A DNA stretch of 64,000 nt from Mangrovibacter plantisponsor. GTDB taxonomy: Bacteria > Pseudomonadota > Gammaproteobacteria > Enterobacterales > Enterobacteriaceae. The first letter of the stretch is position 1. The number at the start of each line of letters is the position of its first letter. Shown here piece by piece: positions 14,889-34,627 of the stretch. Where the stretch lies: contig NZ_QGTS01000001.1 of the NCBI RefSeq assembly GCF_003182475.1, forward strand, positions 167,980 to 231,979, in the 5' to 3' direction. A model generated the notes under the pieces. The model worked only from the letters and a program-made list of their open reading frames with translations, made no database searches and had not been told where the DNA came from. A program made the position numbers and the translations under genes.

Positions 14889-14927
14889 GACTTTCTCCTT
14901 CCTTCATTGAATTCGAATAACAGGGTA

Positions 14928-16400
<1,473 letters not shown>

Positions 16401-19098: not shown

Positions 19099-19235
19099 AA
19101 GCCACCTCCTGCACTTGCCAAAAATGAAACAGGGGCAGCTCGGTGGGGCAACGAACAACAACATACTGCGGGACGTCTCTGCTCATTATGCTTCTCCTGA
19201 AAGATGCAGCTCACGAAAAGTCCGGCTGCAAATTT

Positions 19236-19251
19236 TTGACCAAATGGTTAA
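19236..19251. promoter_or_regulatory. RutR-box-like operator (TTGACCAAATGGTTAA) in the preT promoter region
   Basis: 15/16 match to the E. coli RutR consensus TTGACCAnnTGGTCAA, which I quote from memory of the literature. Lies between the RutR-like regulator gene and preT. Confidence 0.5.
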
Positions 19252-19429
19252 GTTTTCAGGAATACCCATGCGATTTGCATGCCATTTATTTCATCTTCCT
19301 TTAACCCTGCAGAAAACAAGGCTTAAGGCCACCAACACACGCTTATCAATGCACAACATCTCTTCATTTTGGTGCATTTCGCACCATTTTTGACACTTTT
19401 AGCTACATTAAGAGGCAACAGGCATGCCA

Positions 19430-20077
19430 TCACTCAAGACCACAAATCCGTAAAACACAACTCAGCACATGCTGGGTTGCACGCTCTTCAGCGCCTTCAC
19501 TGTGGGCATCACTCCCCAGAATTGCGGCTATCTGAATGTCAAAATCGGCGTAGGTCTGGGTCATCGACCAGACGGTAAAAAAGAAGTGAGTGGTATCAGT
19601 TGCGCGTAATTTTCCCTGCGCTATCCAGCCATCCAGCATGCGTGCTTTTTCAGCCACCAACTGGCGTAACTGATTTTGCAGTAACGGGTGCACCACCTGT
19701 GCGCCCTGCAATATTTCATTGGCAAACAGTTTTGAGGCATCCGGGCGCGTAAAGCTGAAGCGGATTTTTTTGCGTACATAAGCTTCCAGCGCCGCTTTAG
19801 GGTCTGCGTCCGCCACCATGACTTCGAGTGGCGCCAGCCAGTCATGGAGAATGCGCTCCAGTACCCGCAGATAAAGGTTTTGTTTATTGCCGAAGTAATA
19901 GTGAAGGTTGGGCTTGGGGAGTTGGGCTTCATCGGCTATTTGTTGCATGGTCGCACCGCGAAAGCCATAACGGGCAAACACCCGCTCAGCCGCAGGCAGG
20001 ATAACGGCTTCATTGTCCTGGCGAATGCGCCCTTTATCCGGGCTTTCCACCATGCCACTGAGCAATACATCATTCAT
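19430..20077 (-). CDS. TetR-family regulator, RutR-like (pyrimidine utilisation regulator homolog)
   Basis: Alignable over its length with E. coli RutR (..LYYFPSKE/LHYYFGNKQ.. ..WLAPL.. ..YADF..). HTH at the N-terminus. Confidence 0.8.
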   Translation of the reverse strand: MNDVLLSGMVESPDKGRIRQDNEAVILPAAERVFARYGFRGATMQQIADEAQLPKPNLHYYFGNKQNLYLRVLERILHDWLAPLEVMVADADPKAALEAYVRKKIRFSFTRPDASKLFANEILQGAQVVHPLLQNQLRQLVAEKARMLDGWIAQGKLRATDTTHFFFTVWSMTQTYADFDIQIAAILGSDAHSEGAEERATQHVLSCVLRICGLE

Positions 20078-20132
20078 CAGTTAACTTACGCCTCCGAAAC
20101 GAATGAAAAGCGCCCTCCCTGGCGCAAAAGCA

Positions 20133-21149
20133 TTACTGCAGTTTGGCAGCGGCATCCCATACTGCGTGGGACATAGCCGCATCGCCCGGGTCTTTCTTAA
20201 TCACCGGGGTATCGCCGCCACTGTGCAGCAGAACATCAATGGTGCGATGGTAGGCTGCCGGGTCAAGCCAGCCAATTTTTGGGGTGTTCGCGTTGGTTAT
20301 CAGTTTGGCGACATTTTCCATCTGGCGTGTTTGCCCTTCCACGGTGGAAGCACCAGAGGCATCTTCAGCAACCACAATTTTTGCTGCTTCTTCCGGGTGT
20401 TTAACGGCATAGTTCCACCCTTCAAATGACGCTTTCAGGAATTTCGCCATTTTGCTGACAAACGCCGGGTCCTTGAGGTCCGGGCCACGCACGTACAGGC
20501 CGTCTTCCAGGGTTGAAACCCCTTCGTCCTCATAGGGGAAATTAATCAGTTCATCTTTTTTCAGCCCGGCGTCAATTAACTGCCAGTATTCGTTGTAATT
20601 CATGGTGGAGATACAGGCAGCCTGGTCCTGTAACAATGGGTCAACGTTGAAGCCCTGTTTTAAGATGGTGATGTCTTTACCCGGTTTCAGCCCCAGTTTG
20701 TTCATCCAGTTAAAGAAGGGGTATTCGTTGCCGCCGAACCAGACACCGAGGGTTTTGCCTTTAAAGTCTGCCGGGGTTTTAATGCCACTGGCTTTTTTAC
20801 AGGTGAGCATCATGCCCGAGCGGTCATAGACCTGGGCAATATTCACTAATGGAACGCCGGCTTCGCGGGAAGCAAGCGCATCAGGCAGCCAGTCAACAAT
20901 GACATCTGCAGATTTACCGGCAATCACCTGGACTGGCGAAATATCCGTCCCGCCCGGCTTGATAGTGACATCCAGCCCTTCCTTTTGATAAAAACCTTTC
21001 GCCTGAGCCACGTAATAGCCAGCAAACTGCGCCTGCGGCACCCATTTTAACTGGAGTGTCACTTTCTCTGCGGCAAAGGTTTGAAAGGCGAGCGTCGCAG
21101 ACATTGCCGCCAGCAACAATCCCCGGCGAAAAGCAGAACGTTTTATCAT
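20133..21149 (-). CDS. ABC transporter substrate-binding protein, NitT/TauT (NMT1/THI5-like) family
   Basis: Start at Met15 behind GAGGAG. Signal peptide. NMT1-like fold signature. Confidence 0.75.
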   Translation of the reverse strand: MIKRSAFRRGLLLAAMSATLAFQTFAAEKVTLQLKWVPQAQFAGYYVAQAKGFYQKEGLDVTIKPGGTDISPVQVIAGKSADVIVDWLPDALASREAGVPLVNIAQVYDRSGMMLTCKKASGIKTPADFKGKTLGVWFGGNEYPFFNWMNKLGLKPGKDITILKQGFNVDPLLQDQAACISTMNYNEYWQLIDAGLKKDELINFPYEDEGVSTLEDGLYVRGPDLKDPAFVSKMAKFLKASFEGWNYAVKHPEEAAKIVVAEDASGASTVEGQTRQMENVAKLITNANTPKIGWLDPAAYHRTIDVLLHSGGDTPVIKKDPGDAAMSHAVWDAAAKLQ

Positions 21150-21281
21150 TGAGTAACTCCTCGGGTTAGGTATGTATATCCCCAGACTCATTCCGGCATA
21201 CCGCTACCAGCCGCCGGTATTAAAAAGGGAATACAAACGTGCTAAGCATCATTAATTAACGTTATTTTTCATTCACTTCGC

Positions 21282-22352
21282 TTACGACATACCACGCACT
21301 GTGGGATGCCAGAAATTCACCCGCCTGTCGAGGCGGACCACCAGGGCGTACATCAGCGAGCCGGCAACGGAGGCCACCACAATGGCAGACCACACCACCG
21401 GCATATGCATGCGCGCAGATTCAGTAGAAATACGAAAGCCCAGCCCGGCAGTGGGCGAGCCAAAAAACTCCGCAACAATGGCGGTAATTAATGACAGCGT
21501 CGCATTCACTTTCAGGGCACTAAAAATGAATGGCATGGCTTCAGGCAGGCGCAGGGAAAGCAGGCTCTGGCGCGGCGTGGCGGCATAGCAATACATCAGT
21601 TCCTGCTCCATTTTCCCGCAGGATTTCAGGCCAGCCAGGGTACTCACCAAAGCCGGGAAGAAGGTGACCAGGGTGACAACAGCCGCTTTGGAAGGCCAGT
21701 CGAAGCCAAACCACATCACCGCTATCGGCGCCACCCCCACTAATGGCACGGTACTGGTCAGGTTGGCCACTGGCAGCAATCCGCGTTGCAGGAACGGCAG
21801 GCGGTCTATCAACAAAGCAACCACAATACCCAGCCCGCTTCCCAGGACATAACCCGCCAGGACAGACTTAATCACCGTTTGCAGGACATCGCCCATCAGC
21901 ATACCTGAGCTGCTCACCAGCGCAGACACAATCGCCAGCGGCGCAGGCAAGATGACCTGGGGCACATCAAATGCCGTGACCAGGATTTGCCAGAACACCA
22001 GGATCCACAGCCCTAACAGGCTGGCAACCAGGCTTGCCGGTAGTGGCGTGCGGGCAAGGCGCTGCACACTGACCACCGCCAGTAATGCCACCGCCGCCAG
22101 AGTTAACCCGCTGAGCGGCAACCACGCAAGCCACACGGTACCTGCCGCCAGAGTGATAGCAAAAGCCGCCATGCGCCAGACCGGCAATGTGGGTGAACAG
22201 GCCAGCAGCGCACTGATAATCAGCACCAGGTTTACCGCCGCCAGCGCACCGTTCACCGGCGAGGCAACAGAGAGTTGGACCAGGGATAAAGCCAGTAACA
22301 GCAGTGCCAACAGCAGTGAGATAACACCCGGAATAGTTTTACTTTTCATCAC
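21282..22352 (-). CDS. ABC transporter permease (NitT/TauT family)
   Basis: Polytopic membrane protein with an EAA-like loop (..ATPRQSLLSLRLPEAMPFIFSALKV..). Confidence 0.75.
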   Translation of the reverse strand: MMKSKTIPGVISLLLALLLLALSLVQLSVASPVNGALAAVNLVLIISALLACSPTLPVWRMAAFAITLAAGTVWLAWLPLSGLTLAAVALLAVVSVQRLARTPLPASLVASLLGLWILVFWQILVTAFDVPQVILPAPLAIVSALVSSSGMLMGDVLQTVIKSVLAGYVLGSGLGIVVALLIDRLPFLQRGLLPVANLTSTVPLVGVAPIAVMWFGFDWPSKAAVVTLVTFFPALVSTLAGLKSCGKMEQELMYCYAATPRQSLLSLRLPEAMPFIFSALKVNATLSLITAIVAEFFGSPTAGLGFRISTESARMHMPVVWSAIVVASVAGSLMYALVVRLDRRVNFWHPTVRGMS

Positions 22353-23245
22353 GCCCCCTTACGCTTACGCATGACCAGGCGTTCAGCCAGTGTGACCATG
22401 CCGGTTAGTACCAGGCCCAGCAGCGACGCCATCACCAGAGCCGACCAAATCTGCACGGTATTACCGTAATAAGAACCGGTCAGCAGGCGAGCCCCTAACC
22501 CGGCCTGCGCACCTGTAGGCAGTTCTGCCACCATGGTGCCCACCAGCCCACTGGCAATCGCGACACGAAAAGCGGGGAACAAATAAGGCAAAGCGGAAGG
22601 CAGGCGCACCATCCAGAAGATATGGATCCGGCTGGCCGCCCAGGTGTGTACCAGTTCCATCTCCATTTTTTGCGGGGAACGCAGCCCCTGCACAGTGGCT
22701 ATCGTCACCGGGAAAAAGCACAAATACATGGCGATGGTGGCTTTCGGCAACATACCTGTTATCCCCATGCTGCCGAGAATGATCAGTACGATGGGAGCAA
22801 TAGCCAGTACCGGAATGGTTTGTGAGGCTACAATCCACGGCAGCAATGCTTTATCCAGGGTGCGAGAATGAACGATACACACTGCCAGCAAAATCCCCAA
22901 CACCACCCCCATGGCGAAACCGGTTAATGCGGCGCTGGCCGTTACCCAGGTGTGCAACAGCAGGTTACGCGGCGATGTTACCGGCCATTGAGTGAGGCTG
23001 TTCCAGATATCAGCAACAATTTGGTGGGGAGCAGGCAGTAACGGGCGAGTGGCATTCAGTGAGGCAACAATCAGATCTGCCGTGTTCCAGGAAGCCCGGT
23101 GGGACAACACCCGGTCAATGGTGCCATGGGCATTCAGCGCCACAGCCAGGGCGTACCACAGCACGACCACTGCCAGCAGTACCACACTGACGGGCAGCGT
23201 ATGGAACGTTAAACGCCTGCCCCAGGAGAGCGTTCTAGTGGTCAT
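22349..23245 (-). CDS. ABC transporter permease (NitT/TauT family)
   Basis: Second permease. 4-nt overlap with the neighbouring permease gene. Confidence 0.75.
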   Translation of the reverse strand: MTTRTLSWGRRLTFHTLPVSVVLLAVVVLWYALAVALNAHGTIDRVLSHRASWNTADLIVASLNATRPLLPAPHQIVADIWNSLTQWPVTSPRNLLLHTWVTASAALTGFAMGVVLGILLAVCIVHSRTLDKALLPWIVASQTIPVLAIAPIVLIILGSMGITGMLPKATIAMYLCFFPVTIATVQGLRSPQKMEMELVHTWAASRIHIFWMVRLPSALPYLFPAFRVAIASGLVGTMVAELPTGAQAGLGARLLTGSYYGNTVQIWSALVMASLLGLVLTGMVTLAERLVMRKRKGA

Positions 23246-24068
23246 GATGCCCCTCCACCAGCGCTTCCCTCACCGCCTGAGATAACTGCATAAATGCAGC
23301 TGTGTCGCGGATTGACAGGTCGCGCTCAGCAGGCAGGGGCGAATCAATCACTTTAATAATGCGCCCGGGCCGTGGAGACATAATGACGATTTTGGTGGAC
23401 AGGTACACTGCCTCAGAAATGGAGTGGGTCACGAACACCATAGTGCGTTGCTCGTGATACCACAGTTGCTGCAGTTGTTGGTTGAGGTTGTCGCGGGTCA
23501 GTTCATCCAGCGCGCCGAAAGGTTCATCCATCATCAATATTTTGGGTTCAAAACCTAAAGCACGGGCAATGGAGACACGCTGCTGCATGCCGCCGGATAA
23601 CTGCCAGGGGTACTTTTTCTCAAACCCTTTCAGCCCAACACGGGCCAGTTGCTCACGGGCAATTTCATCACACCGGCCTGGCGGCACACCCTGAATTTGT
23701 AACGGCAACATGACATTTGCCAGCACCGTGCGCCACGGGAGCAATACCGGTGCCTGGAAGACATAACCATAAGCCCCGGCCTGGCGGGCTTCAGAAGGAG
23801 ACATATCGTTGACCAGCAACTCACCTGAACTCACCTGTTCGAGATCGGCAATGGCACGCAGTAAGGTTGTTTTTCCGCAACCGGACGGCCCAATGAAAGA
23901 GACAAACTCACCCTGGCGAATTGTCAGATTCACATCTTTAAGTGCATGTACTGGCTGGTCTGCCGCCGGGTAAATGACATTTACATCACGCACCGTAACG
24001 GCTGGCCGTGCCGTGGCAGGCTTTAAGGACACCACGGCAGACTCTTCCTCATACATTAGCTGGCTCAT
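23235..24068 (-). CDS. ABC transporter ATP-binding protein (NitT/TauT family)
   Basis: Start at Met85 of the ORF (MSQLMYEEE..) behind GGGGAG. Walker A GPSGCGKTT, signature LSGGMQQRVSIARAL. Confidence 0.85.
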   Translation of the reverse strand: MSQLMYEEESAVVSLKPATARPAVTVRDVNVIYPAADQPVHALKDVNLTIRQGEFVSFIGPSGCGKTTLLRAIADLEQVSSGELLVNDMSPSEARQAGAYGYVFQAPVLLPWRTVLANVMLPLQIQGVPPGRCDEIAREQLARVGLKGFEKKYPWQLSGGMQQRVSIARALGFEPKILMMDEPFGALDELTRDNLNQQLQQLWYHEQRTMVFVTHSISEAVYLSTKIVIMSPRPGRIIKVIDSPLPAERDLSIRDTAAFMQLSQAVREALVEGHHDH

Positions 24069-24539
24069 TCCCCTGCTCCCCCTGTCAATTTTTGACTGGT
24101 TGGTTAAGTTTCTCTTGGTTATGCCATTTTTGTGCCAGAGTGAAAAACCGCAAGAACACAGCACGTTTAAAGCAATTGGCGGCAGGATATGAACTTTTAT
24201 TGACCATATGTGGTGCAAAAAACAGCAGAGTTGCTTTGTGATGGGGCAAGGAAAGTACGTGGGCAATAAAACTGTGGTCAGGGCTGCCCAAAAAGTGATG
24301 AAAAAGGCAGCAACTGCCATCCTATAAAAGGCTCGCAGTTGCAGTTAGTGACAGATGCCCACAACCGCTGTGGCAGTTGGTGGAAAAACCAGCAAAAATA
24401 CCGTCATGGCTATCAGAATGACTAATATCTGTAGCCCGATGCTGAACATTCTTTCTGCCAGAACAGCAACACTGGCATAACCGGCAAAAAACGGTATGGT
24501 TTGCTGATGAAAATTGTTGATGACTTTCAGGAACTCCCC

Positions 24540-25391
24540 ATGGAAAACCCGCTTACCTTCCACCGCTACCACGGCCTTGGCAACGACTACCTGGTCTGCC
24601 ACCACAGTGTGGCTGCGCAACTGACTAACCAGCAGATCCAGCGTATTTGTGACCGCCATTACGGCATTGGCTCCGATGGCCTGTTGGTGGATGGCGATGA
24701 CGGCGATATCCCCACATTGCGTATTATTAACCCCGATGCTTCAGAAGCCGAGAAAAGCGGAAATGGGCTCAGGATCTATGCCCGTTATCTGTTCGATTGC
24801 GGCCGTGTGGCGCACACGCCTTTTAAGGTAAACACCCTGGGCGGCCAGGTTTCCTGCCTGGTGGAAGAAGGGGCACATCAGGTAGTTGTCGATATGGGCG
24901 AAGCCCGTTTTAACCCTGCCGCCCTGCCAGCATTAGTAGAAGGCACAGAAGCACTGGCTCTGCCATTAATGCTGGGTGGCAAATCCTGGCAGGCAACGCT
25001 GGTATCTATGGGTAACCCACATTGTGTTATCCGTGTGGAAAAGCTCGACCTGGAGCTGGTCCGGCAGTTGGGTGGGCAAGTGGAAACCCTGCCATTATTC
25101 CCCCGGCGCACTAATGTGCAGTTTGTGGAAGTTGTGGACCGCAATAATATCAATATTGGTATCTGGGAGCGGGGAGCCGGTTATACCCTGGCTTCCGGCA
25201 GCAGCAGTTGTGCCGCCGCCAGTGCCATGTACAAACTGGGGTTAGTGGATGAACAAGTCACCGTGCATATGCCTGGCGGGCAGCTCACTATCACACTGAA
25301 TAAAGATTTCCAGGTCAGAATGCGCGGCCCGGTGCAGAAAGTTGCTACTATTCAGCTGGATAACGACTGTTTTTTTGATATGCACAGTTAA
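24540..25391 (+). CDS. diaminopimelate epimerase family protein (DapF-like paralog)
   Basis: GLGNDY, SMGNPHCV and GSGSSSCAAA catalytic Cys motifs alignable to E. coli DapF. Start at Met14 behind AGGAA. Confidence 0.7.
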   Translation: MENPLTFHRYHGLGNDYLVCHHSVAAQLTNQQIQRICDRHYGIGSDGLLVDGDDGDIPTLRIINPDASEAEKSGNGLRIYARYLFDCGRVAHTPFKVNTLGGQVSCLVEEGAHQVVVDMGEARFNPAALPALVEGTEALALPLMLGGKSWQATLVSMGNPHCVIRVEKLDLELVRQLGGQVETLPLFPRRTNVQFVEVVDRNNINIGIWERGAGYTLASGSSSCAAASAMYKLGLVDEQVTVHMPGGQLTITLNKDFQVRMRGPVQKVATIQLDNDCFFDMHS

Positions 25392-25549
25392 GCTCATACT
25401 AAGCCCGGTATATAACCGGGCTTCGCTTTTTGCTCACAAAACCCCACCGGATCAGTGTATTCCCTTCAAGTTATTCCCCGATTAGTCGATAGCAGATAGA
25501 TAAAAAAATAATTTCCTGCCTATAACTTGTTACTCACCGGGAGTTCAGA

Positions 25550-27148
25550 ATGAAAATGACCGTTCGGGCGCGTTTAATCGGTATAATTGGTTTTCTCTGT
25601 ATTTTACTAGTGATCACCTCCGTTTGGGGGATCTTTGGCCTGCACAGTGCAGAACAGCGAGCAGAAAGCACCTACCGTACTGAACTGCTGCCCTTGCAAT
25701 ACTCTTCCCGTTTGTACCGCATGGTGCAAAACCAGTCTTCTACATTATTCGAAGCGTTACGTTACTGGACCAGTGCCAGTGAAGTAGAAACTCGTCTGAC
25801 CGTTATTCAGGAAGACAGTGAAAAAATTGCCGCCGCCCGTAAAGCCTGGGCTGGCCTGGATACTCATAAAGACATTGCCGGGTTGCGCGACAGTTTTTTC
25901 CAGGATCTCGACAACTACCAACAGGCACTGAATGAAGCCGGGGGGTTGCTCAAACAAGGTAACCCTTCCGCTGCGCTGGTGGTGATTGAAACCCGCCTTC
26001 GGGTGCATTCACGGGCAATGGCAAAGAATATTGATACCCTCGATGCACAAATGCGCACGCTGGCAGAGAAGAATTACCAGCAAAGTAACAACGCCTATCT
26101 GCTGGCGCGTAACAGCCTGATAGTGATGCTGATTGTCGGGTTACTGGCAGGCATTATCGCAGGCTGGCTGCTGATTCGCTCATTACACCAGACACTTTCC
26201 CGCGCCCGTAACCTGGCGGAATCCATTGCCAATGGTGAACTGAACCACCGTGTCACCGCCAGCACACGTGACGAACTTGGGGAACTGATGCAGTCACTCG
26301 CCACGATGGATGTGCGCTTGTCAGATATTGTGCAGGATGTCAGTAGCAGCGCAGATATTCTGCGTGATGCGGCTCGCCAGATGGCTCAGGGCAACGACGA
26401 CCTTTCCGAACGCACTCACTCCCAAGCCAGTTCACTGGAGGAAACCGCTGCCAGCATGGAGCAAATGACGGCCACCGTGAAACACAACGCGGAAAATGCT
26501 TCACAGGCAGATGCACTGGCAACCACCGTGCGCGAACAGGCACAACGTGGTAGCGATGTCTTAAACAGCGCGGTAAGCGCCATGCGTGAAATTGAAGAAG
26601 CCAGTAACCAAATTGCCGATATCAACCGGGTGATTGATGAACTGGCCTTCCAGACTAACTTACTGGCACTGAACGCTGCGGTGGAAGCCGCAAGAGCGGG
26701 TGAGCAAGGGCGTGGTTTTGCCGTAGTTGCCACCGAAGTGCGCCAGTTAGCCCAGCGCTCAGCTAAAGCTGCAGCAGAGATCAAAACCCTGATAGACGCC
26801 AGCGTGAGCAAAATTAACACCGGGAGTAACCTGGTCAGCCGCTCCGGTGACATGCTGAATGAAATTAACCAGGGCGTTGAACGCGTGGTTCATATTGTGG
26901 GTGAAATTGCAGTTGCCAGCCGGGAACAATCAAGCGGCATTGAGCAAGTCAATGCGGCAGTAAACCTGATGGATACGGCTATTCAGCAAAACGCCTCGCT
27001 GGTACAGGAAGCAAGCCATGCCAGCCAGACTGTACGCCAGCACGCTGACTTGTTGGTGGAAAAAATGGCCTTTTTCCACACACAAAATAGTAAAGCCACG
27101 CGGCAGGGAACGGCAACGCACACTGCGATTGAATACAAGGAGGCATGA
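25550..27148 (+). CDS. methyl-accepting chemotaxis protein with periplasmic four-helix-bundle sensor, HAMP and MA domains
   Basis: 2 TM topology. Conserved MCP signalling hairpin (..AFQTNLLALNAAVEAARAGEQGRGFAVVATEVRQLA..). Confidence 0.9.
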   Translation: MKMTVRARLIGIIGFLCILLVITSVWGIFGLHSAEQRAESTYRTELLPLQYSSRLYRMVQNQSSTLFEALRYWTSASEVETRLTVIQEDSEKIAAARKAWAGLDTHKDIAGLRDSFFQDLDNYQQALNEAGGLLKQGNPSAALVVIETRLRVHSRAMAKNIDTLDAQMRTLAEKNYQQSNNAYLLARNSLIVMLIVGLLAGIIAGWLLIRSLHQTLSRARNLAESIANGELNHRVTASTRDELGELMQSLATMDVRLSDIVQDVSSSADILRDAARQMAQGNDDLSERTHSQASSLEETAASMEQMTATVKHNAENASQADALATTVREQAQRGSDVLNSAVSAMREIEEASNQIADINRVIDELAFQTNLLALNAAVEAARAGEQGRGFAVVATEVRQLAQRSAKAAAEIKTLIDASVSKINTGSNLVSRSGDMLNEINQGVERVVHIVGEIAVASREQSSGIEQVNAAVNLMDTAIQQNASLVQEASHASQTVRQHADLLVEKMAFFHTQNSKATRQGTATHTAIEYKEA

Positions 27149-28440
27149 TGAGCAAGTTACTGGCCTCACTTTGTCTGGTATTCCCGGTGCTCGGCTGGGC
27201 CGACACTACACTGAAAATCGCCACCATCAGTAATGGCGACATGACGATTATGCAACAACTTTCAGACCGGTATGAGCAGTCTCACCCGGGCGTCCATTTG
27301 CAGTGGCATGTAATGGACGATGGCACACTGAGAAAAACGATTTATTCCTCAATGGAAGGTAACGGCGAACGTTTTGATGTGATTACCGTCGGCACATACG
27401 AAGCACCGTTATGGGGAGAGAAAGGCTGGCTTGCGCCACTGAACAATTTACCCGACAGTTATGACGTGAACGATTTACTGCCCCCATTGCGCAAGGCACT
27501 TTCATGGCATAACACGCTGTATGCCCTGCCGTTTTATGGTGAAAGCAGTATGACGTATTACCGCAAAGATTTGTTTGCCGCAAAAGGGCTGAGCATGCCG
27601 GCAGAACCCACCTGGCAGGATATTCAGCATTTTGCAGCCGAACTGACGGACAAGAGCAAAGGCATTTATGGTTTGTGCCTGCGCGGGCAACCAGGCTGGG
27701 GCGATAACGTTGCGCTTATCAACACAATTGCCAACGCTTATGGTGCGCAGTGGTTCGATGAAAGCTGGACACCAACCATGAATACACCGGAGTGGCGGCG
27801 GGTTCTGACTGACTATGTCGCAATGGTGCATGAGTACGGCCCACCCGATACAGTAGACAACAGTTTTGGGCAGATCCTGCGCCTGACGGCACAGGGGGAA
27901 TGCGCCATGTGGGTGGACAGTACCGTTGCCGCCGGGCTGCTGACCAACCCGCAAATTTCGCTGGTGGCCGACAAACTGGGGTTTGCTTCAGCGCCCCATG
28001 ATATTACCCGCAATGGCTCTCATTGGTTATGGGCATGGGCGCTGGCGGTACCCGCTAACAGTTCCCAGCGGGAACAGGCAGTAGATTTCATCGCCTGGGC
28101 CACTTCACGTGGGTATATCCAGGAAGTTGCCAAAGTGGTGGGCTGGGGGTCTGTTCCTCCGGGTAGCAGGCAATCGACCTATGCTGAAGCAGGCTACCAG
28201 GCACTGGCACCCTATGCCAAACAAGTGCTGGCCGCCATGGAAACGGCCTCACCGGAAACACCGACACTGAACCCGGTACCCTACCAGGGGATTCAGTATG
28301 TCAGTATCCCCGGGTTTGACCAGATGGGCAGCCAGGTGGCACAAAACATCGCTAACCTGTTAACGGGCAAACTGACAGTGGATGAAACGCTGAGTGCCAA
28401 CCAGCAGGCTGTGCTGGATGTCCGGCAGAAAATCCACTAA
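27145..28440 (+). CDS. extracellular solute-binding protein family 1 (sugar/polyol-type SBP), orphan
   Basis: Signal peptide, ~43-kDa family-1 SBP. ATG overlaps the MCP stop (ATGA). RBS AAGGAGG lies inside the MCP 3' end. No ABC permease or ATPase genes adjacent. Confidence 0.8.
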   Translation: MMSKLLASLCLVFPVLGWADTTLKIATISNGDMTIMQQLSDRYEQSHPGVHLQWHVMDDGTLRKTIYSSMEGNGERFDVITVGTYEAPLWGEKGWLAPLNNLPDSYDVNDLLPPLRKALSWHNTLYALPFYGESSMTYYRKDLFAAKGLSMPAEPTWQDIQHFAAELTDKSKGIYGLCLRGQPGWGDNVALINTIANAYGAQWFDESWTPTMNTPEWRRVLTDYVAMVHEYGPPDTVDNSFGQILRLTAQGECAMWVDSTVAAGLLTNPQISLVADKLGFASAPHDITRNGSHWLWAWALAVPANSSQREQAVDFIAWATSRGYIQEVAKVVGWGSVPPGSRQSTYAEAGYQALAPYAKQVLAAMETASPETPTLNPVPYQGIQYVSIPGFDQMGSQVAQNIANLLTGKLTVDETLSANQQAVLDVRQKIH

Positions 28441-28453
28441 CCCCAAAGGATAA

Positions 28454-28488
28454 CTGCCCCATGCTTAATCAACTGGGGCAGTATTTTC
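28454..28488 (+). terminator. rho-independent terminator after the SBP gene
   Basis: ctgcccc-N14-ggggcag stem followed by tattttc. Confidence 0.6.
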
Positions 28489-28494
28489 AGGATG

Positions 28495-29511
28495 TTATTT
28501 ACCGCTGACGGCAGCCATACCTTTTAATAACGCGGCATTAAACACCGCCGGGTCCTGAATTTGTGGGGCGTGGCCCAGATTATCGAATTCAACCAACGTG
28601 GCGTGAGGCATTTTGCTGGCCGCTTCTTTGCCCAAAACCGCATAGTTACCCAGAGTGGCCTGCACCGAAGGCGGCGCACCATCTTTACCCGGCGCGGTAT
28701 TGTCTTTCTTACCCACCATAAGCAGCACTGGCATGTGTAAATCACCCCATTCATACATAACGGGCTGGGTGTAAATCATGTCGTACAGTTGTGCCGAGTT
28801 CCAGGCTATACGCTGTTTGCCCGGGCCGTTATACATACCCGCCAGCATGTTCACCCATTTATCCCATTCAGGTTGCCACTCACCGGCATAGTAAGTGTGC
28901 TGTTCATATTTGCGAATAGAAGCTGCCGTGGTTTTCAGCTCTTTTTGGTACCACTGGTCGATAGTACGGTAAGGTACGCCTTTGCGTTTCAGATCTTCCA
29001 GACCAACCGGGTCCACCAGAATCAGTTGCGACACGGAATCCGGGTACATCAGTGCAAAACGTGTCGCCAGCATCCCACCGGTAGAGTGCCCCATCAGGCG
29101 AAAGCGGGTTATTCCCAGGTGGTTCAGCAACTGGTGGGTATTTTCTGCCAGTTGCTGAAAACTAAACTGGTAAGCTGCCGGTTTGCTGGATTTGCAAAAA
29201 CCGATTTGGTCCGGTGCTATTACCCGGTAGCCCTGTTCTGACAACAAGCGAATGGTGCCTTCCCAGGTATCTGAGCAAAAGTTTTTGCCATGCATCAGTA
29301 CCGCCACCTGCCCATTCGCTTTTTCCGGGCGAATATCCAGGTACGCCATCTCCAGGGACTGCCCCTGGGAGGTAAAGGTAAAATGCCGGGCAGGCCAGGC
29401 GTAGTTAAAACCTTCCAGTTGCAGCCCATAGCTGGGGGTTTGCGTTTGTGCCCATACAGGAAAAGCACAACAAATCGACAGTAAAGCTGCAGGTAAAACA
29501 CGTATTCCCAT
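28495..29511 (-). CDS. secreted alpha/beta-fold hydrolase
   Basis: Signal peptide, nucleophile elbow GHSTGG. Confidence 0.8.
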   Translation of the reverse strand: MGIRVLPAALLSICCAFPVWAQTQTPSYGLQLEGFNYAWPARHFTFTSQGQSLEMAYLDIRPEKANGQVAVLMHGKNFCSDTWEGTIRLLSEQGYRVIAPDQIGFCKSSKPAAYQFSFQQLAENTHQLLNHLGITRFRLMGHSTGGMLATRFALMYPDSVSQLILVDPVGLEDLKRKGVPYRTIDQWYQKELKTTAASIRKYEQHTYYAGEWQPEWDKWVNMLAGMYNGPGKQRIAWNSAQLYDMIYTQPVMYEWGDLHMPVLLMVGKKDNTAPGKDGAPPSVQATLGNYAVLGKEAASKMPHATLVEFDNLGHAPQIQDPAVFNAALLKGMAAVSGK

Positions 29512-30618: not shown

Positions 30619-31404
30619 TTACCCCATTACCGTGCGGTACAGCAGGCTGTCGAGCGCCCCTGTTTTACCCGTTGCGCTCAGGGGTAATTCCGGTGGGATT
30701 TCCCCTCTTGCCAGTTCGTGTTCAATAAACGCATGCAAGTGCTCCCTGCGCGGGCCATACCCGGCTTCCCCGGTGCGCTGTTTAATTTCCAGTAACTGGT
30801 CTATTTCTGCCAGAAGGCTGGCATCAGTAACTGTTTTTGCCAGTAATTCGCGGAACAGTACGGGTGGTTGCCCCAGCCCGGCCTCAATCCAGCGCACTGC
30901 CAGTAAAGGCCGCAGCACATAAAAGTACTTTTTCAGTCGTACCGAGTCACCCTGCAAATAACCGCGAAAGTTTTTGCGCGCCATTGAGTAATAGTGCCAG
31001 CGAGCTCTGACAGGTGAAAACCAGTCTGGTTGCTGTGCACGCAACTCGGCCATCACACTTTCATCCTGCTGGTAAACCACCGGGGAGTTCAGCCATTCGA
31101 GCAATGTAGGGTTGGCGGCTTTTAATAGCCCCAGTGCTTTGCGCCACTCCCAGCCACTGACATCCAGCTCATCATCAATGGGAAGCTCGATGACATCGCG
31201 TTGCGGTTCAACCCGCAGGTACCACTCAGCCGGGTGAACATATAAAAACCGGACATCGTAGTCGCTGTCTGGTGAGGCAAAGCCCCACCCACGGCTCCCG
31301 GATTCACAGGCATAAAGCACTTTCACCCCAAACCGGCTTTCTACAGATTGTAATGTGTGCCGCACACGGCTTTGCATGGCGGCGTCCACTGCTAATATTG
31401 CCAT
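30619..31404 (-). CDS. pol-beta superfamily nucleotidyltransferase (RlaP/PF10127-like predicted NTase)
   Basis: Start at Met14 behind GGAG. NTase motif YACESGSRGWGFASPDSDYDVRF (hG[GS]...D.D). About 32 bp downstream of the SPFH gene. Confidence 0.7.
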   Translation of the reverse strand: MAILAVDAAMQSRVRHTLQSVESRFGVKVLYACESGSRGWGFASPDSDYDVRFLYVHPAEWYLRVEPQRDVIELPIDDELDVSGWEWRKALGLLKAANPTLLEWLNSPVVYQQDESVMAELRAQQPDWFSPVRARWHYYSMARKNFRGYLQGDSVRLKKYFYVLRPLLAVRWIEAGLGQPPVLFRELLAKTVTDASLLAEIDQLLEIKQRTGEAGYGPRREHLHAFIEHELARGEIPPELPLSATGKTGALDSLLYRTVMG

Positions 31405-31435
31405 TTTCTTCTCCTTTTTGTGGCCTGTTGCCGGG

Positions 31436-32566
31436 TTACACATTAATTTTCACTAAACCCTGTAATACCTGGTCCAGCCCGCCAAATACTGAAATTTTAT
31501 CAATACGTTCAGCCACTTTTTCCAGGGTTTCCATTTCTTTAAGCCGCAACGCGACCGGGTTGTTTTCCATCACTTTGGCTGTATTCAGCAAAGATCGGGT
31601 TGCTGCTGTTTCTTCACGACGGCGGATGACATTTGCCTGCGCTGATTTTTCCGCTTCCACCAGCCGGGTTAAAATCGCCTTCATATCACCAGGCAAGATA
31701 ATGTCCTTCACACCGACAGACGCAATTTCAATACCAAAGAGAGCCAGCCGCTGTGTTACCTGCTCACCCACGATGCCGTCCAGCACCAGTTTGTCTTCCA
31801 ACAATTCGTCCAGTGAGCGGGTTCCCACGGCCTGGCGCAGCGCGAACTGGACTTCGCGGTACAGGTATTCCAGTGGCTTAGTCAGTTGAGCAAATGCGCT
31901 CAATACATCCTGGTAGCGCCAGTTCACCGCCATATTCAGGCGAATGCTGACTTTATCTTTTGTCAGGATCTCCTGGCCGCTCACTTCCAGCGCCTGTAAG
32001 CGCATATCCACCACTTCGGCTTCCACCTGGTGGTTTACCTTCCAGTACGCATGAACGCCGGGTGGTAACAGTTCCTGGGTTACACCATCTATTTTCAGTA
32101 CCCCAGTATGCCAGGCAGGGACTTGTACGCTCAGCACAAGGTCGCGGCCTTTAACCGCTGCACTACCAGTGCGTGATTTCACCAGCAGGTTTTGCAGCGC
32201 TTCTGGCAACTTCACATCCTGAACTTCTACGCGTTCCAGGCGTAATGCGCCCTGGTTCTGCCAGTACAGACGGCGCGTTGAAGGGGGAATCAGTGCCTGT
32301 AACACGCCATCGCAGTACAACACACCCACTTCATCTTCACCGGTGTCTGCTTCCAGGCAATAACGCGCCACCCACTCGGGTTTGTAGTGGCGTAAATAGC
32401 CACTGAGTTCATCATCCACCATGCTGCCATCCAGTTTTATCAACTGCACTTCGGCAGCCGAAAACCAGGGTAAACGGTGCTGGCCCGCTTCCAGAATTTT
32501 TTCAATTTCTTCGTGTTGCGCCAGCAAACCAATCTGACCTTTCCGTATTGTGATTTTTTTAGCCAT
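31436..32566 (-). CDS. SPFH/band-7 (slipin-like) domain protein with a unique ~150-aa N-terminal domain; no TM segment
   Basis: Start at Met27 behind AAGGAAA. C-terminal half matches SPFH cores (..IRLNMAVNWRYQDVLSAF.. ..RLALFGIEIASVGVKDIILPGDMKAIL.. ..EAEKSAQANVIRRREETAA..). Confidence 0.75.
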   Translation of the reverse strand: MAKKITIRKGQIGLLAQHEEIEKILEAGQHRLPWFSAAEVQLIKLDGSMVDDELSGYLRHYKPEWVARYCLEADTGEDEVGVLYCDGVLQALIPPSTRRLYWQNQGALRLERVEVQDVKLPEALQNLLVKSRTGSAAVKGRDLVLSVQVPAWHTGVLKIDGVTQELLPPGVHAYWKVNHQVEAEVVDMRLQALEVSGQEILTKDKVSIRLNMAVNWRYQDVLSAFAQLTKPLEYLYREVQFALRQAVGTRSLDELLEDKLVLDGIVGEQVTQRLALFGIEIASVGVKDIILPGDMKAILTRLVEAEKSAQANVIRRREETAATRSLLNTAKVMENNPVALRLKEMETLEKVAERIDKISVFGGLDQVLQGLVKINV

Positions 32567-32733
32567 GTTGTTTTCCTTTTTCTTAATACCGGTGCAACCA
32601 CGGATGCAGGGGCGAAACCGCAGGGGAAACGTTGTTTTGCCCACGGCCCGGCACCATTACCGGTGGTTGCCTGGGGGCTACTCCATACTGGCTGTAACCC
32701 GTTGTACTGCGAAAGTTGTTTCACTCATTCAAT

Positions 32734-32810
32734 GTGAGGTGCGAACCCAGGAATCGAACCTGGCATGACCGACTTTTCGCTAATGCCGTTCTGCTGGCGG
32801 AACACACCCC
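32734..32810 (-). ncRNA. tRNA-like element (canonical T-arm plus acceptor-like helix) inside the ~310-nt leader of the SPFH/NTase transcript; candidate Y-RNA-like module or tRNA remnant
   Basis: Minus-strand CCAGG-TTCGATT-CCTGG (32763..32747) is a textbook T-stem/T-loop. Flanking GGGGUGU (32810..32804) can pair with GCACCUC (32742..32736), giving a ~77-nt tRNA-sized unit. D and anticodon arms are degenerate and there is no encoded CCA. Confidence 0.4.
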
Positions 32811-32890
32811 GGATAACGACCGTATCGTTCCTGGTGCGCTGGCGGAGAGTTATTAACTCCGGCAATTCCAGCATGCTGACGTAGATAACA

Positions 32891-32907
32891 TTGCCAGTTC
32901 CGTGCCA
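32891..32907 (-). promoter_or_regulatory. sigma54-type -24/-12 promoter (TGGCACggaacTGGCA) pointing away from rtcR toward the SPFH/NTase unit
   Basis: Minus-strand 5'-TGGCACGGAACTGGCAA-3' has GG and GC at the canonical 10-bp spacing. About 140 bp from the rtcR start, mirroring the rtcR/rtcBA arrangement in E. coli. Confidence 0.55.
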
Positions 32908-33043
32908 AAAACCAGAAAAGCGCAAAATAAATTCATAACCAATTGAAAAATATATTATTTATAATATAAAAGATGAATATCACTTGTTCGCCACCAGGCA
33001 TTTTTATATCCTTATTTATCGTATTTTATCTTTTGGGATAAAC

Positions 33044-34627
33044 ATGAATAAACGCCGGGTTGTGATAGGTGTACTGGGAACTGAACTGGACAGGCGAGGA
33101 AAACGCGCCAACCGGATGAAAAAGTGGCGCCCGACTGTTGGGTTGTGCATGCAGGAAGACATGCCGGTTGACCGACTGGAATTATTACACCAGCCCACAG
33201 ATATCAACCTGGTGTCTGCGGTGCAGCAGGATATTCAACAGGTTTCACCAAAAACGACGGTAAACACCCATGCTATTGCGATTAATGACCCGTGGGATTT
33301 TGAAGAGGTGTATGCCGCATTTCTCGATTTCGCCACACACTACCCGTTCGACACCGGGCATGAAGAGTACCTGGTGCATATCACCACAGGTACACATGTG
33401 GCACAGATTTGCTGGTTTTTGCTAACCGAGGCCCGCTACCTGCCCGCCAGCCTGTTACAAACCAGCCCGGCCAAACGCCAGGGAGATGAACCGGTTTCTC
33501 CCGCAGGCACCTGTTCCACAATTGACCTCGACCTGAGCCGTTACACTAAACTCACCAGCCGCTTTCAACATGAACAGCAGGAGTCGGTGTCATTTCTGAA
33601 ATCTGGCATTGAAACCCGCAATGCAGACTTTAACCGGACTATCGACCAGATTGAGCGGGTGGCACTGCGTTCATCTGCACCGGTATTGCTTACCGGGCCA
33701 ACCGGTGCCGGGAAGTCGTTTCTGGCCCGGCGTATTTACCAGTTACGCCAGGCCCGCCATTTAGTTAAAGGGCAGTTTGTCGCCGTGAACTGTGCAACTT
33801 TGCGGGGCGATAACGCCATGTCTGCGTTATTCGGCCATGTGAAAGGAGCCTTTACTGGTGCGCTACAGGCCAGAAGTGGCTTGCTACGTGAGGCCGACGG
33901 CGGCGTTCTGTTTCTGGATGAAATTGCCGAACTGGGGCTGGATGAACAGGCAATGCTTCTGAAAGCTATCGAAGAGAAAACGTTTTTCCCTTTTGGTTCA
34001 GATAAAGAAGTCCACAGTGACTTCCAATTGATTGCCGGTACGCACCGCAATATGCATGAATGGGTGGCTCAGGGCCATTTCAGGGAAGATTTATTCGCCC
34101 GTATTAATATGTGGACGTTCCGCTTACCTGGCCTTGCTGAACGCCGGGAAGATATCGCGCCAAATATTCGTTATGAGCTGGAGCGCTATGCCCGCGACCA
34201 CCAGGCACAAATTCGCTTTGATAAAGAAGCGCTCACCCGCTACCAGAATTTTGCCTGTTCAGCCGGAGCACAGTGGCGCGGTAACTTCCGCGAGCTTGGC
34301 AGCTCAATCGCTCGCATGGCAACCCTTGCAGAACAAGGGCGCATTACGGAATCACTGGTAGATGAAGAAATTGCCCGGCTGCAGGCAAACTGGAACCCTT
34401 CTGCACATTCAGCGCCGCCATTACCCGTCGATATCAGCCAACTGGATGTGTTCGACCAGCGCCAGTTAGAAACTGTAATTGAGGTTTGCCGGCGGTCCGC
34501 AACCCTTTCCCAGGCCGGGCGAGAATTATTTGCCGTATCACGGCAGAAAAAAGCCAACCCAAATGACGCCGACCGGCTTCGCAAATACCTGGCGCGCTTT
34601 GGGCTCAATTGGGATGATGTGAAATAG
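33044..34627 (+). CDS. rtcR: sigma54-dependent transcriptional regulator RtcR (CARF-like N-domain, AAA+ sigma54 activator domain, C-terminal HTH)
   Basis: Alignable along its whole length with E. coli RtcR (..KWRPT..LC.Q.....DRLELLH.. ..NPWDFEEVYA.. ..THVAQICWFLL.EARYLPA.L.Q.SP.. ..DLDLSRY.. ..GPTGAGKSFLARRI..Q..QARH.. ..GAFTGA.. ..DADRLRKYLARFGL.W..). Start at Met21 of ORF 32984..34627. Confidence 0.9.
   Translation: MNKRRVVIGVLGTELDRRGKRANRMKKWRPTVGLCMQEDMPVDRLELLHQPTDINLVSAVQQDIQQVSPKTTVNTHAIAINDPWDFEEVYAAFLDFATHYPFDTGHEEYLVHITTGTHVAQICWFLLTEARYLPASLLQTSPAKRQGDEPVSPAGTCSTIDLDLSRYTKLTSRFQHEQQESVSFLKSGIETRNADFNRTIDQIERVALRSSAPVLLTGPTGAGKSFLARRIYQLRQARHLVKGQFVAVNCATLRGDNAMSALFGHVKGAFTGALQARSGLLREADGGVLFLDEIAELGLDEQAMLLKAIEEKTFFPFGSDKEVHSDFQLIAGTHRNMHEWVAQGHFREDLFARINMWTFRLPGLAERREDIAPNIRYELERYARDHQAQIRFDKEALTRYQNFACSAGAQWRGNFRELGSSIARMATLAEQGRITESLVDEEIARLQANWNPSAHSAPPLPVDISQLDVFDQRQLETVIEVCRRSATLSQAGRELFAVSRQKKANPNDADRLRKYLARFGLNWDDVK

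What the first reader, a model, noticed from the sequence alone, without database searches (positions are those of the whole stretch)
25550..28440. Chemoreceptor gene translationally coupled (ATGA overlap) to an orphan family-1 solute-binding protein gene
The MCP stop and the SBP start overlap (..GCATGATGAGC..), and the SBP ribosome-binding site AAGGAGG lies inside the MCP coding end. No ABC permease or ATPase genes are nearby. This architecture suggests the SBP is a dedicated periplasmic ligand-presenting partner of this 4HB-sensor MCP (analogous to MBP-Tar or GBP-Trg, but genetically hard-wired), rather than a transport component.
Basis: partly seen in the sequence, partly recalled or inferred. 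Interest (0 to 1): 0.55.

Follow-up and report, generated by a model that had tools for sequence, protein, structure and literature searches.

The report
Chemoreceptor operon with its own binding protein
A chemotaxis receptor gene and a sugar-alcohol-binding protein gene that has lost its transporter form a conserved two-gene unit in plant-associated enterobacteria, which would be the first bacterial chemoreceptor found to carry a dedicated periplasmic co-receptor in its own operon.

Summary
The two ORFs, the ATGA overlap and the internal AAGGAGG are real. The window is Mangrovibacter plantisponsor. One claim is wrong: an ABC transporter lies 1.2 kb upstream. It is a NitT/TauT-type system with its own NMT1 binding protein, so it is unlikely to serve this SBP.

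- About 70 of 76 ordinary SmoE loci have the permease genes smoF and smoG directly downstream.
- None of about 30 MCP-linked loci has them.
- From the SBP side, all 13 close relatives follow an orthologous MCP. From the MCP sensor side, 16 of 16 usable loci carry the SBP.
- The gap between the genes is always tight, from an 8-nt overlap to 19 nt.
- The flanks differ: a flagellar region in Erwiniaceae, plasmids in Yersiniaceae, an unrelated locus here.
- All 10 operons examined carry a FliA (sigma-28) promoter match.
- The SBP clade has lost residues that are invariant in transporter-linked homologues.

Most likely this is a dedicated polyol co-receptor for a four-helix-bundle chemoreceptor, expressed with the motility regulon. 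Binding, ligand and phenotype are untested. I rate it a new variant of a known kind, of moderate interest.

The parts
25401..25423 (+). Terminator-like hairpin ending the upstream dapF-like gene (24501-25391). It forms the 5' boundary of the operon.
   Evidence: 9-bp stem with 6 GC pairs followed by a T-rich tail. The upstream gene is DAP_epimerase.
25466..25492 (+). Candidate FliA (sigma-28) class-3 promoter, TCAAGTTA-N11-GTCGATAG. It matches 12 of 16 positions of TAAAGTTT-N11-GCCGATAA and lies 84 nt upstream of the MCP ATG.
   Evidence: nine orthologous operons have matches of 13-16/16 at -66 to -116; in 300-nt background segments, >=12/16 occurs in 2.6%, >=13 in 0.24% and >=14 in none. No sigma-70-like site was found in 25300-28600.
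25550..27148 (+). Methyl-accepting chemotaxis protein, 532 aa. TM1 is about residues 9-30, and TM2 about residues 187-209. The protein has no C-terminal NWETF-type pentapeptide.
   Evidence: Identical to PWW12628.1/WP_110024528.1 of Mangrovibacter plantisponsor.
25640..26107 (+). Periplasmic four-helix-bundle sensor domain of the MCP (residues 31-186).
   Evidence: Pfam 4HB_MCP_1 5.6e-17 and TarH 3.8e-11. The AF2 model has pLDDT 84.8 and four helices. Foldseek top matches are the MCP2201, Tar, Tsr, Vc1313 and PcaY sensor domains at 9-16% identity. There is no sequence relative in the PDB. Only 6 hits reach E<=1e-3 among 1.84 billion representative proteins.
26168..26308 (+). HAMP domain of the MCP (residues 207-253).
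   Evidence: Pfam HAMP 6.8e-08.
26516..26977 (+). MCP signalling domain (residues 323-476), including the conserved hairpin tip LAFQTNLLALNAAVEAARAGEQGRGFAVVA.
   Evidence: Pfam MCPsignal 5.2e-49. This stretch is nearly invariant among the orthologues.
27137..27143 (+). Shine-Dalgarno sequence AAGGAGG for the SBP gene, inside the last MCP codons.
   Evidence: Orthologues carry AAGGAG or GGAG at the equivalent place.
27145..27148 (+). ATGA stop/start overlap. If the second ATG at 27148 is the real start, the overlap is the 1-nt TGATG type.
   Evidence: Databases hold both a 431-aa and a 430-aa version of the protein.
27145..28440 (+). Periplasmic SmoE/MtlE-like polyol-binding protein, 431 aa. 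Residues 1-19 (27145-27201) are the signal peptide, with cleavage after GWA.
   Evidence: Pfam SBP_bac_1 2.1e-49. Match to PDB 4RYA: E=2.5e-136 over residues 21-420. Identical to WP_245929925.1. The signal peptide was read from the sequence; no prediction tool was available. There is no lipobox.
28024..28038 (+). W294-L-W296-A-W298 motif. It corresponds to the Trp clamp that holds D-mannitol in 4RYA.
   Evidence: Aligned to the NWLWSW motif of 4RYA. Invariant in both the MCP-linked and the canonical groups. The clamp is described in PMC12718374.
28454..28487 (+). Terminator hairpin CUGCCCCA-N12-UGGGGCAG followed by UAUUUU. It lies between the SBP gene and the convergent alpha/beta-hydrolase gene and forms the 3' boundary of the operon.
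   Evidence: dG -20.4 kcal/mol, z = -3.0, and 0 of 200 shuffles fold as well.

Best explanation
This is a two-gene chemosensory module, probably transcribed from a FliA (sigma-28) promoter. The first gene encodes a transmembrane chemoreceptor with a Tar-like four-helix-bundle periplasmic domain. The second, translationally coupled to it, encodes a secreted SmoE-family polyol-binding protein that no longer belongs to an ABC transporter.

Proposed mechanism. The SBP captures a linear polyol (mannitol- or sorbitol-like; exact specificity unknown) in the periplasm. Either the closed, ligand-bound form docks on the membrane-distal part of the receptor dimer, or the SBP is already bound there and closes on ligand. 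Either event shifts the signalling helix and modulates CheA, giving polyol chemotaxis. Because the SBP is made with the receptor and the motility regulon, sensing would not depend on substrate induction of an uptake operon.

Shown here: the domain identities, conserved linkage and coupling, absence of SmoFGK from all linked loci, the promoter consensus, and clade-specific loss of transporter-associated invariant residues.

Inferred: SBP-receptor contact, the ligand class, the direction of the response, and actual FliA dependence.
For: 1. Identity. The MCP has 4HB, HAMP and MCPsignal domains. [quoted passage not shown] Of 173 positions that are >=90% conserved in transporter-linked SmoE proteins, 122 are identical in this clade, including the Trp clamp.
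2. Linkage from the SBP side. All close SBP relatives examined follow an orthologous MCP: L001-L004 and L081-L088, 13 loci. None of the 76 more distant SmoE loci has that sensor domain next to it.
3. Linkage from the MCP side. In a metagenome scan with the sensor domain, 16 of 16 loci with enough sequence carry the SBP immediately downstream.
4. The junction always lies between an 8-nt overlap and a 19-nt gap, with a Shine-Dalgarno sequence.
5. No transporter. SmoF and SmoG lie directly downstream in about 70 of 76 canonical loci, usually with SmoK and often with mannitol dehydrogenase. They occur in none of the MCP-linked loci and nowhere in the 64-kb window.
6. The pair moves as a unit. Only the pair is shared between loci. 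It sits between yedD and fliE in the Erwiniaceae flagellar region, beside Rep3/ParA-ParG genes on Yersiniaceae plasmids, and in an unrelated locus here.
7. Sigma-28 promoter matches of 12-16/16 occur upstream of all 10 operons examined. Background is 2.6% of segments at >=12 and none at >=14.
8. Pairwise distances of the sensor domain and the SBP correlate at r=0.98.
9. Positions invariant in 70-72 of 72 transporter-linked SmoE proteins are changed in this clade: T24, N29 (4RYA N16), V55 and Q392. G74, conserved in 65 of 72, is changed too. All five are also changed in its two signalling-linked sister groups. The three groups together form one clade in 29 of 30 NJ bootstraps.
10. SBP-mediated activation of 4HB chemoreceptors is an established mechanism: Tar-MBP, Trg-RBP/GBP and Tap-DppA (PMC8050422).
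Against: - There is no direct evidence that the SBP touches the receptor. A multimer prediction could not be run.
- Only the window and +/-8-10 kb of each related locus were searched for SmoFG. A matching permease elsewhere in these genomes is not excluded.
- The window's own sigma-28 match is the weakest (12/16, background 2.6%).
- Conservation in the sensor domain is concentrated on helices 1 and 4. That is expected for any 4HB receptor and does not discriminate SBP docking from direct ligand binding.
- An SBP gene in a flagellar operon need not act in chemotaxis. E. coli fliY/tcyJ in the fliAZY operon is an example (my own knowledge, not tested here).
- Several family-invariant residues are changed (N29, E243, E390, Q392). 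The ligand may therefore not be sorbitol or mannitol.
Confidence: 0.65

Rival explanations
1. Dual-function SBP, as with MBP or RBP. The protein still delivers polyols to a CUT1 permease and ATPase encoded elsewhere in the genome, and only in addition signals through the adjacent MCP.
For: All characterised bacterial chemoreceptor-SBP pairs use transport SBPs (PMC8050422). The SBP keeps 122 of 173 family-conserved positions. Whole genomes could not be searched for SmoFG.
Against: None of about 30 linked loci has SmoFG within 8-10 kb, against about 70 of 76 canonical loci. Positions invariant in transporter-linked homologues across phyla are lost in this clade and in its signalling-linked sisters. 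The pair also travels on plasmids without any permease nearby. Among 68 plasmid records with a SmoF orthologue, none of the listed genera is enterobacterial (38 records were not listed).
Confidence: 0.15
2. Co-regulation without interaction. The SBP is simply another periplasmic protein of the motility regulon, for example a scavenger or buffer for a polyol, or a competitor for ligand. The MCP senses something else directly.
For: An SBP gene inside a flagellar operon has a precedent in E. coli fliY/tcyJ (own knowledge). Competition between SBPs and a chemoreceptor for ligand has been reported for S. meliloti McpU (title and abstract of PMC13556227). No interaction evidence was obtained here.
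Against: This does not explain strict co-occurrence with one particular, otherwise unique sensor domain in both directions. It also does not explain the r=0.98 co-divergence, or a second, more distant SmoE-like group that again overlaps an MCP gene by 4 nt.
Confidence: 0.1
3. Chance adjacency or decaying remnant. An SBP gene was left behind after its transporter was lost, and it happens to follow an MCP gene.
For: Orphan SmoE-like SBP genes with no MCP nearby do exist (L042, L056).
Against: The SBP is 63-75% identical across three enterobacterial families, with an intact signal peptide and core motifs. It evolves more slowly than the MCP sensor domain. Linkage holds in about 30 loci in different contexts.
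Confidence: 0.03

Closest known systems
BasB-BasT and CosB-CosT of Halobacterium salinarum (binding-protein-mediated taxis; as summarised in PMC8050422)
   Same: The binding-protein gene lies directly beside the transducer gene rather than with transporter genes. The binding protein is thought to be dedicated to taxis.
   Different: Those pairs are archaeal, with dCache-like transducer domains and Peripla_BP_6 or OpuAC binding proteins. Their binding-protein gene is upstream of the transducer gene. Here the system is bacterial, with a four-helix-bundle domain and an SBP_bac_1 polyol-type protein. The gene order is MCP then SBP, with stop/start overlap and a sigma-28 promoter.
E. coli Tar-MBP, Trg-RBP/GBP and Tap-DppA
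   Same: A four-helix-bundle (TarH-type) enterobacterial chemoreceptor is paired with a periplasmic two-lobe binding protein. Like Trg and Tap, this MCP lacks the C-terminal NWETF pentapeptide.
   Different: Those SBPs are transport components encoded in substrate-regulated transporter operons, unlinked to the receptor gene (PMC8050422). Here no transporter is present and the SBP gene sits in the receptor operon. The sensor domain is only 13-16% identical to those of Tar and Tsr.
SmoEFGK / MtlEFGK polyol ABC transporters (S. meliloti SmoE, PMC10433430; A. vitis 4RYA)
   Same: The SBP is clearly homologous (E=2.5e-136 to 4RYA). It shares the Trp clamp and most invariant residues.
   Different: There are no SmoF, SmoG, SmoK or polyol dehydrogenase genes and no SorC/DeoR-type regulator. 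Residues invariant in canonical members have changed (N16, E232, E379 and Q381 in 4RYA numbering). The clade is separate, with a long stem branch.
Dedicated SBP-sensor kinase pairs (LuxP-LuxQ, TorT-TorS, XylFII-LytS)
   Same: The SBP gene is encoded with the signalling protein and the SBP has no transport role. A sister group of this SBP clade sits beside a histidine kinase and a sigma-54 response regulator.
   Different: The output there is a kinase controlling transcription, not a chemoreceptor controlling CheA.

Membership tests
Methyl-accepting chemotaxis proteins (four-helix-bundle sensor class) | MCP signalling domain with the conserved hairpin tip | tested here: met
   PF00015 5.2e-49. 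The tip motif is nearly invariant in orthologues.
Methyl-accepting chemotaxis proteins (four-helix-bundle sensor class) | Two transmembrane helices flanking a periplasmic four-helix bundle, followed by HAMP | tested here: met
   PF12729, PF02203 and PF00672. The AF2 model has four helices at pLDDT 84.8. Foldseek matches MCP2201, Tar and Tsr.
SmoE/MtlE polyol-binding proteins of CUT1 ABC transporters | Sequence homology to characterised or solved members | tested here: met
   E=2.5e-136 to 4RYA over 400 residues. 46-51% identity to canonical loci.
SmoE/MtlE polyol-binding proteins of CUT1 ABC transporters | Trp clamp that holds the linear hexitol | tested here: met
   W294, W296 and W298 are invariant. 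The clamp is described in PMC12718374.
SmoE/MtlE polyol-binding proteins of CUT1 ABC transporters | Encoded with the SmoF/SmoG permeases and SmoK ATPase | tested here: not met
   Absent from the 64-kb window and from all MCP-linked loci. Present in about 70 of 76 canonical loci.
SmoE/MtlE polyol-binding proteins of CUT1 ABC transporters | Family-invariant residues N16, E232 and Q381 (4RYA numbering) | tested here: not met
   N changes to S/A, E to Q, and Q to D in this clade. These residues are present in 71-72 of 72 canonical sequences.
SmoE/MtlE polyol-binding proteins of CUT1 ABC transporters | Binds sorbitol, mannitol or another polyol | not testable with these tools
   Needs purified protein. 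No coordinates were available to map the changed residues onto the pocket.
SBP-dependent chemoreceptor systems (Tar-MBP type) | Ligand-loaded SBP binds the receptor's periplasmic domain | not testable with these tools
   The prediction tool takes single chains only.
SBP-dependent chemoreceptor systems (Tar-MBP type) | The SBP is a transport component encoded with its transporter | tested here: not met
   The contrast with known systems is stated in PMC8050422.
Dedicated binding protein-transducer pairs (BasB-BasT type) | The binding-protein gene is adjacent to the transducer gene and not to transporter genes, and this arrangement is conserved | tested here: met
   About 30 loci, tested in both directions.
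Dedicated binding protein-transducer pairs (BasB-BasT type) | Mutants in either gene lose the same tactic response | not testable with these tools
   Requires genetics.
FliA (sigma-28) class-3 flagellar regulon | TAAAGTTT-N11-GCCGATAA-type promoter upstream | tested here: met
   12/16 in the window and 13-16/16 in nine orthologous operons. This is a consensus match only; expression was not tested.

The most novel reading that the evidence does not exclude
Within the SmoE polyol-binding family, one sublineage has left transport altogether and become a set of dedicated periplasmic co-receptors. Two of its groups are translationally coupled to chemoreceptor genes: the enterobacterial clade here and a more distant metagenomic group. 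A third group is fused to an SBP_bac_3-like domain, and in one locus sits beside a histidine kinase and a sigma-54 regulator. The enterobacterial module would be the first bacterial chemoreceptor with an operon-encoded, transporter-free SBP partner. It would be expressed from a flagellar class-3 promoter, and it is mobile between chromosomes and plasmids as a self-contained polyol-taxis cassette.
Probability: 0.5. Interest if true: 0.6.

Novelty: new variant of a known kind. Interest (0 to 1): 0.5.

Why it matters
[quoted passage not shown] A conserved bacterial operon of receptor plus transporter-free SBP would show that bacteria also build dedicated binding-protein co-receptors for chemotaxis.

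It would separate sensing from uptake and from substrate induction. In plant-associated Enterobacterales, which by textbook knowledge take up mannitol and sorbitol through the PTS, it would add an MCP-based route for polyol taxis.

In practice this is a compact two-gene module from a close relative of E. coli. It is absent from all 5,426 complete E. coli genomes. SBP-receptor recognition could therefore be studied, or re-engineered, in a clean and compatible host.

Tried and rejected
- Complex prediction. I built a paired alignment of a fused LBD-linker-LBD-linker-SBP construct to approximate a multimer prediction.
- Sensor-domain homologue search in the 5.8-billion-protein index. It returned only fragments of the same clade. 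The exhaustive HMMER search found 6 hits. The weak one, P0227 (29% identity), is not the partner of the second MCP-SBP group.
- PDB sequence search with the sensor domain found nothing meaningful.
- Mapping clade-specific substitutions onto the pocket or the surface was not possible. No coordinates are returned, and no paper describing the pocket beyond the Trp clamp was found.
- Seven literature searches, for an MCP-SBP operon, polyol chemotaxis through a binding protein, 4RYA, SmoE and BasB/CosB, found no description of this pair. The Sphingomonas pectin-binding SPH1118 lies with ABC transporter genes, so it is not a precedent.
- Mobile-element scars: only short, chance-level repeats flank the operon, and GC content is flat.
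- Rfam found no RNA element in 25300-28600.
- Sigma-28 pattern search with <=3 mismatches found nothing in the window. The site has 4 mismatches and was found by scoring.
- The 97%-identical cluster representative P0001 could not be located on a contig.
- I rejected the idea that the nearby NitT/TauT transporter serves this SBP. It belongs to a different family and has its own NMT1 binding protein.
Full report
**Observation.** The window carries two co-directional ORFs, 25550..27148 (532 aa) and 27145..28440 (431 aa). The first has 4HB_MCP_1/TarH, HAMP and MCPsignal domains. The second is SBP_bac_1/SBP_bac_8. The MCP stop TGA (27146-27148) overlaps the SBP ATG (27145-27147). A second in-frame ATG at 27148 would give a 1-nt TGATG overlap, and its spacing from the AAGGAGG at 27137-27143 is better. 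Both proteins match, residue for residue, database entries from Mangrovibacter plantisponsor (MCP PWW12628.1, SBP WP_245929925.1). Orthologues at about 97% identity occur in M. phragmitis and M. yixingensis.

An ABC transporter lies 1.2 kb upstream on the other strand: NMT1-type SBP 20133-21191, two permeases 21282-23245, ATPase 23235-24320. It is NitT/TauT-type with its own binding protein. It sits next to pyrimidine-catabolism-like genes and a RutR-like TetR regulator. No SmoF/SmoG-like CUT1 permease is detectable anywhere in the 64 kb.

**Operon boundaries.** A terminator-like hairpin at 25401-25423 follows the upstream dapF-like gene. After the SBP stop codon there is a hairpin at 28454-28481 with a U-rich tail (dG -20.4 kcal/mol, z -3.0), placed between the SBP gene and a convergent hydrolase gene. 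No sigma-70-like promoter was found. At 25466-25492 there is TCAAGTTA-N11-GTCGATAG, which matches 12 of 16 positions of the sigma-28 consensus. No Rfam family matches the region. GC content is flat.

**What the SBP is.** The best solved relative is 4RYA (E=2.5e-136, residues 21-420), described as a D-mannitol-binding protein with a Trp clamp (PMC12718374). Database names for homologues are 'sorbitol/mannitol transport system substrate-binding protein'. The S. meliloti homologue SmoE belongs to the broad polyol transporter SmoEFGK (PMC10433430). The N-terminus reads as a Sec signal peptide (…VLGWA|DTT) without a lipobox. Homologues fall into a discrete clade at >=63% identity (Mangrovibacter, Pantoea, Erwinia, Rahnella, Ewingella), followed by a drop to <=54%.

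**Linkage, from the SBP side.** A scan of one genome per species returned 4 clade members and 76 more distant SmoE loci. All 4 have an orthologous MCP directly upstream, with the sensor domain 50-57% identical. None of the 76 does. Six further contig look-ups gave nine more loci with the same MCP-SBP arrangement. Junctions range from an 8-nt overlap to a 19-nt gap, always with a Shine-Dalgarno sequence.

**Linkage, from the MCP side.** A metagenome scan with the sensor-domain alignment gave 18 loci carrying that domain. In all 16 with enough downstream sequence, the SBP follows. Pairwise distances of the sensor domain and the SBP correlate at r=0.98, and the sensor domain diverges about 1.5 times faster.

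**No transporter.** In representative canonical loci the SBP is followed by two BPD_transp_1 permeases, a MalK-like ATPase and mannitol dehydrogenase, with a SorC-type regulator upstream in one of them. By tblastn, SmoF and SmoG lie immediately downstream in about 70 of 76 canonical loci. The exceptions are contig ends and two orphans, L042 and L056. SmoF and SmoG are absent from every MCP-linked locus and from the window.

**Context.** None of the window's neighbouring genes recurs beside the pair elsewhere.
- In Pantoea endophytica, Erwinia rhapontici and Enterobacterales CwR94 the pair sits in the flagellar region: fliC, fliDST, (amyA), yedD | MCP, SBP, DUF6388 … fliE, fliF.
- In Ewingella and Rahnella-like strains it lies beside Rep3 and ParA/ParG genes, and it matches two deposited plasmids of 331 and 465 kb.
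- The pair therefore behaves as a self-contained unit.

**Regulation.** All ten operons examined have a sigma-28 consensus match 66-116 nt upstream of the MCP start. The window scores 12/16 and the others 13-16/16. In background 300-nt segments, >=12 occurs in 2.6%, >=13 in 0.24%, and >=14 never. This argues that receptor and SBP are class-3 flagellar genes. Expression itself was not tested.

**The sensor domain.** AF2 gives a four-helix bundle (pLDDT 84.8; helices 2-71, 76-101, 107-135 and 139-211). Foldseek places it with MCP2201, Tar, Tsr, Vc1313 and PcaY at 9-16% identity. It has no PDB sequence relative. Only 6 hits reach E<=1e-3 among 1.84 billion representative proteins, and nearly all come from the same clade. 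Conservation is concentrated on helix 1 up to the distal loop (…QSATLFEALRYWT) and on the distal loop plus the start of helix 4 (GNPSxALVxIETR). The membrane-proximal loop is variable. This fits a distal functional site but is also typical of 4HB receptors in general. None of the orthologues ends in an NWETF-type pentapeptide.

**Evolution of the SBP.**
- Of 173 positions >=90% conserved among 72 transporter-linked SmoE proteins, 122 are identical in the MCP-linked clade.
- Eighteen positions are fixed to a different residue. Many changes are conservative. The others include N to A/S at position 29 (4RYA N16), E to Q at 243, E to G at 390 and Q to D at 392.
- Seventeen positions have become variable.
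- The clade is monophyletic (40 of 40 tips) on a long stem branch.
- Its nearest relatives are also detached from transport. One is a metagenomic group (P0032, P0075; 54% identity) whose genes overlap by 4 nt the 3' end of an MCP gene; the sensor domain there is cut off by the contig ends. The other is a group fused to an N-terminal SBP_bac_3-like domain (P0036, P0084, P0181, L042). In one locus that gene is followed by a hybrid histidine kinase and a sigma-54 response regulator.
- The two MCP-linked groups cluster in 30 of 30 NJ bootstraps, and all three groups in 29 of 30.
- Positions 24, 29, 55, 74 and 392 are changed in all three groups. Four of them are invariant in 70-72 of 72 canonical sequences; position 74 is conserved in 65 of 72.

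I read this as release from a constraint tied to the permease. That step is an inference, because the residues could not be placed on a structure.

**Mechanism.** The best-supported reading is a dedicated periplasmic polyol co-receptor for a four-helix-bundle chemoreceptor, made with the receptor through translational coupling and with the motility apparatus through FliA. Whether the SBP docks only when loaded (as MBP does on Tar) or is permanently bound (as LuxP is on LuxQ) cannot be decided. Coupled, roughly equimolar synthesis from a class-3 promoter argues for tighter binding than the weak MBP-Tar interaction; this too is an inference.

The rivals are a dual-function SBP with a permease elsewhere, co-regulation without contact, and a decaying remnant. 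They are weighed in the structured fields.

[quoted passage not shown] Seven literature searches found no description of this pair. The SBP fails the membership test 'component of a SmoEFGK transporter', although it is clearly homologous. The system works like Tar-MBP, but its genetic organisation resembles BasB-BasT or LuxPQ. The SBP gene has no match in 5,426 complete E. coli genomes.

**Verdict.** I rate it a new variant of a known kind, with interest 0.5.

Noticed in passing
L109:826-5830; L042:9200-11239; proteins P0036, P0084, P0181: SmoE-like binding proteins of about 680 aa are fused to an N-terminal SBP_bac_3-like domain. In L109 the gene is followed directly by a hybrid histidine kinase (REC-PAS-HisKA-HATPase) and a sigma-54 response regulator. 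This group is sister to the MCP-linked clades and also lacks SmoFG nearby.
   Followed up: partly
L108:1-1739 and L112:3-2194: A second, more distant SmoE-like group (54% identity to the window SBP) has a start that overlaps by 4 nt the end of an MCP gene. The MCP sensor domain is cut off by the contig ends and the organism is unknown.
   Followed up: partly
window 13602-24320 (- strand): A cluster resembling reductive pyrimidine catabolism: M20 amidohydrolase, dihydropyrimidinase-like amidohydrolase, and PreA/PreT-like dehydrogenase subunits. It also holds a RutR-like TetR regulator (19430-20077) and a NitT/TauT ABC transporter with an NMT1-type binding protein, possibly a pyrimidine-related uptake system.
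   Followed up: no
window 30619-34627: RlaP (DNA polymerase beta family, RNA repair pathway), an SPFH/Band 7 protein, and a divergent RtcR sigma-54 activator. This looks like an RNA-repair-type locus without an obvious rtcA/rtcB in the ORFs examined.
   Followed up: no
L081:9448-9771; L085:9382-9726; L088:9400-9723: A small DUF6388 gene follows the SBP gene in all three Erwiniaceae loci. It is absent downstream of the pair in the window and on the plasmids.
   Followed up: no
window 25237-25250 and 28432-28445: A perfect 14-nt inverted repeat (TGGGGTTAGTGGAT / ATCCACTAACCCCA) brackets the operon. One arm lies inside the dapF-like gene and the other spans the SBP stop codon. It is probably chance; about 0.05 are expected in 5.4 kb.
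   Followed up: no
L082 (GCA_052375995.1, labelled Pseudomonas reactans) versus L086 (Ewingella allii): An assembly labelled Pseudomonas carries a 261-kb contig whose gene order around the pair matches the Ewingella plasmid-like contig (Rep3, ParA/ParG, MCP, SBP, Rrf2, RND pump). This is either mislabelling, contamination, or plasmid transfer.
   Followed up: no
L099:1171-2711: The MCP gene of this metagenomic locus aligns in two frames, indicating a possible frameshift or an assembly error. The SBP gene downstream is intact.
   Followed up: no
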